Below are positions 1 to 663 of a stretch of DNA of 724 bases, in pieces. Made by a program: the position numbers and the translations under genes. The stretch's first letter is position 1; every line of letters begins with the position of its first letter. The notes under the pieces are model-generated. The model did not search any database, had not been told where the DNA came from, and saw only the letters and a list, made by a program, of their open reading frames with translations. Source of the stretch: Escherichia coli (GTDB taxonomy: Bacteria; Pseudomonadota; Gammaproteobacteria; Enterobacterales; Enterobacteriaceae); assembly GCF_003334335.1 (NCBI RefSeq), contig NZ_QOWQ01000153.1, one strand, 5' to 3'.

Positions 1-443
1 GCAAGCACCTCATTTTTTGTTGGGGTGCTTTTTTTCAATTCAGCGATATAGCACTCCAGTTTTTCAATGCGTGATTCAATATCATCGTTTTCTGACCGCA
101 ATGCCGTCGGTGGCGTCTTCAGAGAACCAGTAATTATTCCCGGTAGTTTTCCTCTGTAGGTTATCAACACATCCTGCGCCTCTAAAATTATGGGGCGCTT
201 TTCCGGCGACTGCTCATCCCCTTCACATAAAGCGGCAGCAATATCCATGAAAAACTGCTTCGCCTGTTTTTTCGCCTCAGCTTCGTAAAATTCCAGCGTG
301 GCACCTTCAGTACGGTCAAGACTAATCGCCACATTTGGCAACAACAGTGACGGATACCCACCAATTTCCAGTGCCACAGTAACAGTAATCTTATCCGGGT
401 AATTATTTATCCCTTTAACAACCAGTTTGTATTGTTTATTCAT
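1..443 (-). CDS. Hypothetical protein, function unknown; 5'-complete, 3' end beyond the window (at least 147 aa); not a recognisable endolysin
   Basis: Hand translation of the minus strand from ATG at 443..441 gives an uninterrupted frame to the window edge: MNKQYKLVVKGINNYPDKITVTVALEIGGYPSLLLPNVAISLDRTEGATLEFYEAEAKKQAKQFFMDIAAALCEGDEQSPEKRPIILEAQDVLITYRGKLPGIITGSLKTPPTALRSENDDIESRIEKLECYIAELKKSTPTKNEVL... The other two minus frames carry stops (e.g. at 10..12 and 35..37). A 147-codon stop-free run is unlikely by chance at about 44% GC. The ATG lies 4 nt after the holin stop and is preceded by GGGGAGAG, and is the first start codon after the in-frame stop at 506..504. Absent from the supplied ORF track. 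Confidence 0.75.
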   Translation of the reverse strand, partial: MNKQYKLVVKGINNYPDKITVTVALEIGGYPSLLLPNVAISLDRTEGATLEFYEAEAKKQAKQFFMDIAAALCEGDEQSPEKRPIILEAQDVLITYRGKLPGIITGSLKTPPTALRSENDDIESRIEKLECYIAELKKSTPTKNEVL

Positions 444-447
444 CGCC

Positions 448-663
448 TTACTCTCCCCGCGCTGCCTTACGACGGTCCTCTCTGATTTTGAAATACAGGT
501 TAGTCAGATATGTCAGCAGCCCAAACAGCAGACTCCCCAGCACGCCTATTGCCGCCCACTGAGACGGGGAAACCCTGTCCAGCAACTGCAGGAACCAGTA
601 GCCCGTTCCCACCGCTGACGTGGTGTATGACACACCTGTTGTGATTTTTTCCATCTGGTACAT
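448..663 (-). CDS. essD: Class II holin (pinholin), phage 21 S / EssD-EssQ family, 71 aa, complete
   Basis: Track ORF, ATG at 663..661 and TAA at 450..448. Product [71 protein letters not shown]. From memory, the C-terminal part ([14 protein letters not shown]...[22 protein letters not shown]) closely matches phage 21 S21 and the E. coli prophage holins EssD/EssQ. Architecture fits: weakly hydrophobic Gly/Ser/Thr-rich TMD1 ([19 protein letters not shown]), strongly hydrophobic TMD2 ([23 protein letters not shown]), basic C-terminal tail, and two in-frame Met codons (M1, M4). SD GGAGA sits 6 nt upstream of ATG. The symbol is a family-level guess; essQ or plain S would be equally defensible. 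Confidence 0.9.
451..458 (-). promoter_or_regulatory. Shine-Dalgarno for the downstream ORF, embedded in the last holin codons (translational coupling)
   Basis: Minus strand reads GGGGAGAG-TAA-GGCG-ATG. The GGAG is 9 nt upstream of the ATG at 443, and the holin stop TAA lies between the SD and the start. Confidence 0.5.

What the first reader, a model, noticed from the sequence alone, without database searches (positions are those of the whole stretch)
420..470. Composition step at the holin / downstream-ORF junction
By hand count the holin segment (441..660) is about 55% GC and the downstream ORF (1..440) about 44% GC, falling to about 37% around 361..420. With the 4-nt junction, this fits a module boundary where a gene of different origin was recombined in behind the holin, as expected for mosaic lambdoid prophages and for cargo insertions.
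Basis: seen in the sequence. Interest (0 to 1): 0.35.

Follow-up and report, generated by a model that had tools for sequence, protein, structure and literature searches.

The report
Holin–ydfR mosaic joint in prophage
The GC drop is real and marks the joint between a phage-21-type holin gene and an AT-rich accessory gene (ydfR, DUF1327) that sits between holin and endolysin in an E. coli lambdoid prophage; it is a clear but ordinary and very common case of phage mosaicism.

Summary
The window is an E. coli lambdoid prophage, read antisense. It holds a P21-type holin (448..663, minus), a 4-nt spacer, and a YdfR/DUF1327 ORF that starts at 443. Inside 724 nt the step is only marginally significant. 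In the source prophage it is the upper edge of a 978-bp island of 44.6% GC, lying between holin (53.7%) and endolysin (55.1%); the spanin is 54.9%. That island is the lowest-GC stretch of its length in 24.7 kb. The composition breakpoints fall within 3-8 nt of the homology breakpoints against phages that join holin directly to endolysin. Sequence identity to relatives also changes sharply across the joint. Distant DUF1327 genes are AT-rich inserts in other late-operon slots of Enterobacterales prophages. The interpretation (module boundary, gene of separate history) is therefore supported. Three caveats apply. The holin-ydfR arrangement is old and widespread (at least 2124 of 5426 complete E. 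coli genomes, including K-12 Qin essQ-ydfR-rrrQ). ydfR is translationally coupled to the holin and is not an autonomous moron. About half of its GC deficit comes from amino-acid composition. This is a known kind of feature and of low interest.

The parts
448..663 (-). Class II (phage 21 S-type) holin CDS, 71 aa. It has two start codons: Met1 at 661..663 and Met4 at 652..654. GC is 53.7% and GC3 is 65%.
   Evidence: ORF list. Pfam PF04971 'Bacteriophage P21 holin S', E = 1e-32. PHROG holin families. RefSeq annotation 'class II holin family protein'. Hydropathy shows one strong TMD at residues 36-54 and a weakly hydrophobic segment at residues 9-28.
451..456 (-). GGAGAG Shine-Dalgarno-like hexamer formed by the last two holin codons, 7 nt upstream of the ydfR ATG.
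   Evidence: Read from the sequence. GGAGAG-TAA-N4-ATG is present in 10 of 11 annotated loci, whether the next gene is ydfR or the endolysin. A 4-nt gap is present in 73 of 77 IMG/VR loci. The RNA around the joint has no more structure than shuffled sequence, z about 0.
440..447 (-). The joint itself: a 4-nt spacer (444..447, GGCG on the coding strand) plus the ydfR start codon (441..443). Homology with ydfR-less phages ends at 440. The best composition changepoint is at 443.
   Evidence: Changepoint. BLAST breakpoints against 24B. Junction strings. Mismatch maps.
108..443 (-). DUF1327 (YdfR family) part of the downstream ORF, aa 1-112. GC is about 44% and GC3 about 44%.
   Evidence: Pfam PF07041, E = 3.8e-41, model positions 1-92 of 93. 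PHROGs 2091, 1085, 406 and 2735. Translation. GC values.
381..440 (-). AT-rich first 20 codons of ydfR (MNKQYKLVVKGINNYPDKIT), 28.3% GC. This is the deepest point of the dip.
   Evidence: GC expected from its amino acids is 33.9% against a gene-pool value of 54.0%, so the dip is mostly an amino-acid effect. The first 60 nt are 28-42% GC in all nine ydfR homologues examined.
1..107 (-). Start of the in-frame C-terminal extension of the ydfR ORF. The ORF is 211 aa in the source genome and ends at L001 11808, outside the window. The extension lies in a nested 551-bp segment that is absent from phages with the 114-aa ydfR.
   Evidence: ORF length. Second homology breakpoints at window 108 (against YYZ-2008) and 85 (against phage 86). 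Full-length homologues of 55-97% identity, including P0001 'YdfR family protein' of 211 aa.
3..37 (+). Intrinsic-terminator-like hairpin (3..30) followed by a T-run, on the strand opposite to ydfR. It lies 143 nt downstream of a convergent 86-aa ORF (L001 11600..11860, phrog_2572).
   Evidence: Terminator scan. Fold dG -15.5 kcal/mol, z -4.5, with 0 of 200 shuffles folding as well. PHROG match of the convergent ORF.
701..724 (-). Terminator-like hairpin just upstream of the holin. It runs to L001 12729, 5 nt beyond the window, and is followed by UUUUGUUGUUG.
   Evidence: Terminator scan. Fold dG -19.7 kcal/mol, z -3.65.

Best explanation
The GC step is the boundary between two modules with separate evolutionary histories inside the lysis cassette of an Stx-phage-like lambdoid prophage of E. 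coli. Upstream is a GC-rich allele of the phage-21-type pinholin gene S. Downstream is an AT-rich accessory gene of the YdfR/DUF1327 family, which occupies the slot between S and the SAR endolysin gene R.

Shown: the two genes meet at a fixed translational-coupling joint, GGAGAG (the last holin codons, acting as a Shine-Dalgarno site), TAA, 4 nt, ATG. This is the same joint that links S directly to R in phages lacking ydfR.

Inferred: because the S 3' end and the body of R are conserved across cassette types, homologous recombination in these flanks swaps the intervening segment in or out, or replaces it. That segment comprises ydfR, any additional cargo, and the first ~28 nt of R. This explains why the composition breakpoints and the homology breakpoints coincide.

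The low GC is a family trait of DUF1327 genes. In other Enterobacterales prophages they also appear as AT-rich inserts between tail genes or between Q and S. About half of the deficit comes from a Lys/Asn/Glu/Ile-rich protein and about half from A/T-ending codons.

Inferred: ydfR is transcribed with the late operon and translated by coupling to the holin. Its product is a small beta-beta-beta-helix protein. Its Qin homologue was reported to bind the RNase E catalytic domain and to co-purify with RNA, so a late-expressed RNA or RNase E modulator is the most likely role. This has not been shown for this allele.
For: - Identity and context: the window is 100% identical to E. coli JE86-ST05. The gene order is Q ... 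SASA esterase, DUF1378, DUF826, holin, YdfR, lysozyme, Rz, terminase.
- Composition: holin 53.7%, R 55.1% and Rz 54.9% GC against 44.6% for the 978-bp island. It is the lowest such window of the locus, and the composition-only fit is 11469..12443.
- Presence/absence: 24B and Min27 have S-TAA-GCTG-ATG-R. Homology with the window ends at 440 and resumes 28 nt into R.
- Discordant divergence across the joint.
- The joint motif is conserved in 10 of 11 annotated loci and 73 of 77 IMG/VR loci.
- ydfR has lower GC than S in 77 of 77 loci and lower than R in 68 of 68.
- Frequency: at least 2124 of 5426 complete E. coli genomes carry S+ydfR, and 641 carry the direct S-R joint of this allele.
- Family behaviour: only 99 representative clusters in 1.84 billion proteins match the profile. 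Distant members come from Yersinia, Serratia, Pantoea, Enterobacter, Proteus and Morganella. They lie in H|M, M|L, L|K, upstream-of-J and Q|S slots. They are 34-42% GC against flanks of 45-60%.
- Decomposition of the GC deficit.
- Function lead: PMC13232886. The AF2 model of the N-domain has pLDDT 85.
Against: - Within the 724-nt window alone the step is not significant after allowing for the choice of boundary (117 of 1000 shuffles).
- The codon adaptation index of ydfR (0.396) is within the range of the other prophage genes (0.423 +/- 0.063) and above that of the holin (0.377).
- In Qin-type cassettes (Qin, HannyBb, 2H10) the holin is itself 45-47% GC and there is no step. The step therefore depends on which S allele is present.
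- ydfR follows this holin family with the same 4-nt gap even at 40-52% protein identity. The association is therefore old, and insertion cannot be told from loss for this lineage.
- No promoter-like site precedes ydfR, so it is not an autonomous moron.
Confidence: 0.8

Rival explanations
1. There is no separate history. The GC difference is ordinary gene-to-gene variation within one operon. It is caused by the amino-acid composition of a Lys/Asn/Ile-rich small protein and by the usual AT-richness of the first codons of genes.
For: About 5 of the 9.3 GC points of the deficit come from amino-acid composition, as do about 20 of the 26 points for the first 20 codons. The in-window test is weak. 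The codon adaptation index is unremarkable. Other short GC dips occur in the prophage, for example 29.5% at L001 9400..9599.
Against: GC3 is also low: 0.429 against 0.653 and 0.601, p = 8e-5, below all 21 other genes. The low-GC block extends over 978 bp, including non-coding DNA and a convergent ORF. The composition breakpoints match the presence/absence breakpoints. Divergence is discordant across the joint. The endolysin's first 60 nt are 57% GC, so a general 5'-end effect is not seen.
Confidence: 0.07
2. A recent cargo (moron) insertion, private to this prophage lineage: an autonomous promoter-gene-terminator unit dropped in behind the holin.
For: The block has distinct composition and is absent from close relatives. 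A nested 551-bp segment carries a convergent ORF and a terminator-like hairpin of its own.
Against: The S-ydfR joint occurs in at least 2124 of 5426 E. coli genomes, in Qin of K-12 and in many Stx phages. It persists down to 40% protein identity. There is no promoter-like site upstream of ydfR on its strand, and the gene starts 4 nt after the holin stop, using the holin's last codons as its ribosome-binding site. ydfR differs by 5-7% from its nearest class B and D relatives, as do its neighbours.
Confidence: 0.05
3. ydfR is an original member of this lysis cassette. The holin-endolysin direct joints arose by loss. The low GC is maintained by selection, for example for an AU-rich, unstructured mRNA segment between S and R, and is not a trace of foreign origin.
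For: The arrangement is old and conserved with fixed spacing. The low GC persists in all lineages despite long residence. The joint RNA is unstructured. In Qin-type cassettes, S and ydfR have the same composition.
Against: ydfR-less cassettes are not simple deletions, because their R 5' ends differ over the first ~28 nt. DUF1327 genes occur in several unrelated slots (tail genes, Q|S), always as AT-rich islands, and the same convergent partner family occurs in three different slots. That is mobile behaviour. In Morganella, a P21-type holin-lysozyme pair lacks ydfR between them, and the DUF1327 gene lies upstream instead.
Confidence: 0.12

Closest known systems
Qin cryptic prophage of E. coli K-12: essQ - ydfR - rrrQ - rzpQ
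   Same: Same gene order. Same P21-type holin family. Same 4-nt gap between holin stop and ydfR start. ydfR is DUF1327.
   Different: Qin YdfR is 103 aa, about 34% identical, and overlaps rrrQ by 4 nt. The window ORF is 211 aa with a coiled-coil-like extension and lies 319 nt upstream of R. Qin's holin is 46% GC, so Qin shows no composition step.
Stx and Stx-like lambdoid phage lysis cassettes (pinholin S + SAR endolysin R + Rz/Rz1), e.g. 933W/24B/Min27 (S-R direct) and BP-4795/YYZ-2008/phage 86 (S-ydfR-R)
   Same: S and R are 90-99% identical at the nucleotide level. The flanking genes are the same (SASA esterase, DUF1378, DUF826). The joint motif is the same. The cassette type is described in PMC8136144.
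   Different: The source prophage has the rarer 211-aa ydfR form with a convergent phrog_2572 ORF (shared with PhiR5_1). No stx genes are annotated in the 24.7-kb stretch examined.
Morons of lambdoid phages (extra genes between neighbours of related phages, with deviant base composition; the concept is from the HK97/HK022 comparisons of Juhala, Hendrix and colleagues, cited from own knowledge and not read here)
   Same: The extra DNA lies between two genes that are adjacent in relatives, and has markedly lower GC than its neighbours.
   Different: Classical morons carry their own promoter and terminator and are often expressed from the prophage. ydfR has neither on its own strand and is translationally coupled to the holin. 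Only the nested convergent ORF with its hairpin resembles a classical moron.
Phage 21 S21/R21 pinholin-SAR endolysin system (Young laboratory work, cited from own knowledge)
   Same: Pfam P21 holin S family. Dual start at Met1 and Met4. Weakly hydrophobic TMD1 and strongly hydrophobic TMD2. Basic C-tail. Endolysin with an Ala/Gly-rich N-terminal hydrophobic segment.
   Different: The N-terminal extension is MYQ rather than MKS, so it lacks the extra lysine of the S21 antiholin form. An additional gene separates S from R.

Membership tests
Phage 21 S-type class II holin (Pfam PF04971) | Sequence match to the family profile | tested here: met
   PF04971, E = 1e-32, residues 5-67 on model positions 1-63 of 64. 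PHROG holin families 9876 and 20.
Phage 21 S-type class II holin (Pfam PF04971) | Two transmembrane segments, the first weakly hydrophobic (SAR-like), and a charged C-terminal tail | tested here: inconclusive
   Kyte-Doolittle 17-residue windows give 1.99 for residues 37-53 but at most 0.54 for residues 9-28. The tail [13 protein letters not shown] has 6 basic and 3 acidic residues. This is consistent with a pinholin, but topology was not tested.
Phage 21 S-type class II holin (Pfam PF04971) | Dual-start motif giving holin and antiholin | tested here: inconclusive
   Met1 and Met4 are present, but the extra residues (Tyr-Gln) carry no positive charge, unlike Lys2 of S21 and EssQ. Use of both starts is not testable here.
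YdfR / DUF1327 family (Pfam PF07041) | Sequence match to the family profile over the whole domain | tested here: met
   E = 3.8e-41, residues 1-112 on model positions 1-92 of 93. Homologues are named 'YdfR family protein'.
YdfR / DUF1327 family (Pfam PF07041) | Position directly after a P21-type holin and before the endolysin (the context seen in E. coli members) | tested here: met
   This is not universal: distant members lie among tail genes or in the Q|S slot.
YdfR / DUF1327 family (Pfam PF07041) | Binding to the RNase E N-terminal domain and RNA co-purification (reported for Qin YdfR) | not testable with these tools
Moron (lambdoid phage accessory insert) | Extra DNA between genes that are adjacent in related phages | tested here: met
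   S and R are adjacent in 24B and Min27. Here 978 bp replace 23 bp.
Moron (lambdoid phage accessory insert) | Base composition different from the neighbours | tested here: met
   44.6% against 55.3%, p = 1.3e-5. GC3 p = 8e-5.
Moron (lambdoid phage accessory insert) | Own promoter and terminator (autonomous transcription unit) | tested here: not met
   The consensus scan found no minus-strand promoter-like site upstream of ydfR and no convincing minus-strand terminator after it. The start codon is 4 nt after the holin stop. The scan is crude.
Mosaic junction of lambdoid phages (exchange by recombination at gene boundaries) | Abrupt change of similarity to relatives at the boundary | tested here: met
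   Against phage 86: holin 99.5%, ydfR 93.0%. Against YYZ-2008: holin 86.6%, ydfR 94.3%. Homology with 24B ends at window 440.

The most novel reading that the evidence does not exclude
DUF1327/YdfR may be the constant, late-expressed half of a small mobile AT-rich module that lands in intergenic slots of late operons (S|R, Q|S, H|M, M|L, L|K, before J). It usually carries a variable convergent ORF as cargo. YdfR would act as an RNase E-binding, RNA-binding adaptor. It might handle the sense/antisense RNA conflict created by the convergent cargo gene, or tune the relative output of holin and endolysin from the late transcript. The AU-rich, unstructured start of ydfR would be part of that mechanism.
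Probability: 0.1. Interest if true: 0.55.

Novelty: already known. Interest (0 to 1): 0.2.

Why it matters
The finding itself adds little, because mosaic joints at gene boundaries and AT-rich accessory genes are textbook features of lambdoid prophages. The holin-ydfR-endolysin order is already annotated in E. coli K-12 and many Stx phages.

Its use is practical in three ways:
- It gives a cleanly mapped exchange point in the lysis cassette. The joint GGAGAG-TAA-N4-ATG is reused for whichever gene follows the holin.
- It shows that the RefSeq 'pseudogene' label on this ydfR is probably wrong.
- It points to an uncharacterised gene family that is carried by at least 39% of complete E. coli genomes and is co-expressed with the lysis genes of Stx-type phages. 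Any effect on lysis timing or RNA turnover there could influence phage and toxin release.

Tried and rejected
- In-window statistics alone. The single-changepoint likelihood ratio falls at 443 but is reached by 117 of 1000 shuffles, so the window cannot establish the step by itself.
- Codon adaptation index, against a reference of 25 K-12 ribosomal-protein and rpoA genes. ydfR scores 0.396 and the holin 0.377, against a prophage mean of 0.423. This is not discriminating.
- Rfam scan of L001 10900..13100 at E up to 1. Only a chance-level hit was found (ar15, 19.7 bits against a gathering score of 40).
- Promoter scan. There is no plausible promoter for ydfR or for the convergent ORF, and the number of sites found equals that in shuffles.
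- NCBIfam and PADLOC. There were no hits for the holin, YdfR or the convergent ORFs.
- AF2 model of the full 211-aa protein. It was too poor to use (pLDDT 54.5).
- Literature. 'DUF1327' occurs in one paper, in passing. The Stx-phage lysis cassette survey does not discuss ydfR.
- One mismatch-count routine failed on data types, and the counts were redone. The maximum chi-square breakpoint against phage 86 picked the nested breakpoint near 115 and not the holin joint. The holin/ydfR contrast was therefore tested directly with Fisher's test.

Full report
**What the window is.** The 724 bases are 100% identical to a stretch of the chromosome of E. coli JE86-ST05 and three other strains. About 3000 of 5426 complete E. 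coli genomes and 355 phage records, mostly Stx-converting phages, hold related sequence. Both genes are on the minus strand. The first is a 71-aa ORF at 448..663. It is a phage-21-type class II holin (Pfam PF04971, E = 1e-32; PHROG holin families). Four nucleotides after its TAA stop, an ORF starts at 443 and runs off the window. In the source genome (locus L001 = window + 12000) this ORF is 211 aa. Its first 112 residues are a complete DUF1327/YdfR domain (PF07041, E = 3.8e-41). The surrounding genes are those of an Stx-phage-like late region: Q, DNA methylase, tRNAs, TerB, SASA esterase, DUF1378, DUF826, holin, YdfR, lysozyme, Rz and terminase.

**The observation.** The dip is even deeper at 381..440, at 28.3%. 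The best single changepoint in the window is exactly 443, the first base of the ydfR start codon. Within 724 nt this is not compelling, because 117 of 1000 shuffles do as well.

The wider context settles it:
- The holin is 53.7% GC, the lysozyme 55.1% and Rz 54.9%. The DNA between lysozyme and holin is about 44%.
- The 978 bp delimited by the homology breakpoints are 44.6% against 55.3% for the flanks (p = 1.3e-5). This is the lowest-GC window of that length in 24.7 kb.
- A fit that uses composition only places the island at L001 11469..12443. None of 100 shuffles reach its score.
- GC3 tells the same story: 0.429 against 0.653 and 0.601 (p = 8e-5), below every one of 21 other prophage genes. 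The codon adaptation index does not separate the genes.

**Is it a module boundary?** Related phages fall into four classes:
- Class C (24B, Min27 and many Stx2a phages): S-TAA-GCTG-ATG-R, with nothing between.
- Class B (YYZ-2008, BP-4795 and many Stx1a/Stx2c phages): S, 4 nt, a 114-aa ydfR, 50 nt, R.
- Class A (this window, PhiR5_1): the same, plus a nested 551-bp segment that extends ydfR to 211 aa and carries a convergent 86-aa ORF.
- Class D (phage 86): a different nested segment, giving a 268-aa ORF plus a convergent orf6.

Against class C, homology runs through the holin, the stop codon and the ATG and ends at window 440. It resumes 28 nt inside R. These points lie within 3 and 8 nt of the composition breakpoints.

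Among phages that all carry ydfR, the two sides of the joint still have different histories:
- Against phage 86 the holin shows 1 mismatch in 216 nt, with an identical run from 464 to 676. ydfR shows 25 mismatches in 359 nt (p = 9.5e-5).
- Against YYZ-2008 the pattern is reversed: 29 in 216 against 19 in 336 (p = 0.002).

The holin 3' end (460..502) is itself a patchwork of two allele types.

The joint GGAGAG-TAA-N4-ATG is kept in 10 of 11 annotated loci, whichever gene follows the holin, and a 4-nt gap is kept in 73 of 77 IMG/VR loci. The RNA around it is no more structured than shuffled sequence. I infer two things. The last holin codons serve as the ribosome-binding site of whatever gene follows. 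The conserved S 3' end and R body are the homology arms through which the intervening segment is exchanged. ydfR-less cassettes are not simple deletions, because their first nine R codons differ (MSRKLRYGL against MNAKIKYGL).

**Different origin?** Four results qualify the simple 'cargo insertion' picture.
- The arrangement is old and common. At least 2124 of 5426 genomes carry S+ydfR, against 641 with the direct S-R joint of this allele. K-12 Qin has essQ-ydfR-rrrQ with the same 4-nt gap. So do phages whose YdfR is only 40-52% identical (mEp460, HannyBb, Evi).
- In Qin-type cassettes the holin is itself 45-47% GC, so there is no step. The step in this window reflects the pairing of a GC-rich S allele with ydfR.
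- ydfR has no promoter-like site of its own and is coupled to the holin. It is therefore not a classical autonomous moron.
- The prophage gene pool is 54.0% GC and ydfR is 44.7%. GC expected from ydfR's amino acids under the prophage's codon usage is 48.9%. So roughly 5 points of the deficit are due to amino-acid composition and 4 to synonymous choice. For the first 20 codons the effect is mostly amino-acid composition: 33.9% expected, 28.3% observed.

The family as a whole nevertheless behaves like mobile AT-rich cargo:
- A profile of the N-domain finds only 99 representative clusters among 1.84 billion proteins.
- The distant 72-76-aa members come from Yersinia, Enterobacter, Serratia, Pantoea, Proteus and Morganella.
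- They lie in other slots of late operons: between tape measure and M, M and L, L and K, before J, or between Q and S.
- In all nine such loci the DUF1327 gene is 34-42% GC and its convergent neighbour 33-45%, against 45-60% for the flanking genes.
- The same convergent ORF family (phrog_25324) accompanies DUF1327 in three different slots: S|R in phage Evi, H|M in L094 and M|L in L099.

This supports a separate origin and a capacity to move. I cannot say whether this lineage gained ydfR or its ydfR-less relatives lost it.

**The ORF itself.** The source genome annotates ydfR as a pseudogene 'missing C-terminus'. In fact the DUF1327 domain is complete and the 211-aa frame is open. Full-length homologues of 55-97% identity exist, and NCBI names one with 644 member sequences 'YdfR family protein'. 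The family is strikingly modular, with ORFs of 72 to 385 aa built from interchangeable in-frame segments after a conserved N-domain. The window therefore contains a second mosaic breakpoint, at about 85..108.

**Verdict.**
- The boundary is an old, recurrent exchange point and not a recent insertion.
- The inserted gene is coupled to the holin and is not autonomous.
- Amino-acid composition explains about half of the GC effect.

This is a well-populated instance of a known phenomenon, so novelty is 'already known' and interest is low. The recurring DUF1327-plus-convergent-ORF module is the only lead that might repay further work.

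Noticed in passing
window 3..37, plus strand (L001 12003..12037): A 10-bp hairpin (dG -15.5 kcal/mol, z -4.5) followed by UUUUUUU lies on the strand opposite to ydfR, inside the coding sequence of the ydfR extension. It is 143 nt downstream of a convergent 86-aa ORF (L001 11600..11860, phrog_2572). It looks like the terminator of a small antisense transcription unit.
   Followed up: partly
window 701..724 and on to L001 12729, minus strand: A 12-bp hairpin (dG -19.7 kcal/mol, z -3.65) followed by UUUUGUUGUUG lies between the DUF826 gene and the holin, on the late-transcript strand. It is a terminator-like element that Q-modified polymerase would have to read through.
   Followed up: partly
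L001 12102..12443 (window 102..443): RefSeq/PGAP labels the ydfR gene of the source genome a pseudogene ('missing C-terminus'). The ORF is open for 211 aa, has a complete DUF1327 domain and has full-length homologues, so the label is probably an artefact of comparison with the 114-aa form.
   Followed up: yes
window 85..108: A second mosaic breakpoint lies inside the ydfR ORF. Homology to the 114-aa form ends at 108 and to phage 86 at 85. The YdfR family is built from interchangeable in-frame modules, with ORF lengths from 72 to 385 aa.
   Followed up: partly
window 464..676: This 213-nt block covers nearly the whole holin gene and is 100% identical to Stx2 phage 86, while both flanks differ by 7% or more. 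That indicates a recent exchange of the holin alone.
   Followed up: partly
window 335..361: Eight of the nine ydfR differences from phage PhiR5_1 cluster in 27 nt (codons for ...EIGGYPSLLLPN...). This looks like a short conversion patch.
   Followed up: no
window 652..663: The holin's dual-start motif reads Met-Tyr-Gln-Met, whereas EssQ and S21-type alleles read Met-Lys-Ser-Met. The longer product would lack the extra positive charge usually credited with antiholin behaviour (the role of the lysine is from own knowledge).
   Followed up: no
L093, L094, L095, L096-L103, L008 (related loci): Distant DUF1327 genes sit between lambda-like tail genes or between Q and S. Each is followed by a convergent small ORF from at least six different PHROGs of unknown function. 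The pair forms an AT-rich island. The same partner family (phrog_25324) occurs in three different slots.
   Followed up: partly
L001 11489..11560 and the equivalent stretch in L003 and L004: Just upstream of the endolysin start, all ydfR-containing cassettes share a conserved stretch with an inverted repeat (GCCAGTG...CACTGGC in class A) and a second small hairpin (CAGGGATT...AATCCTG) before the R ATG. There is no obvious Shine-Dalgarno sequence for R there.
   Followed up: no
L001 15865..16879: The late region has the layout of an Stx phage (Q, methylase, three tRNA genes, then nanS-like SASA esterase). TerB and DUF3927 genes sit where stx genes usually lie, and no stx is annotated in the stretch examined.
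   Followed up: no
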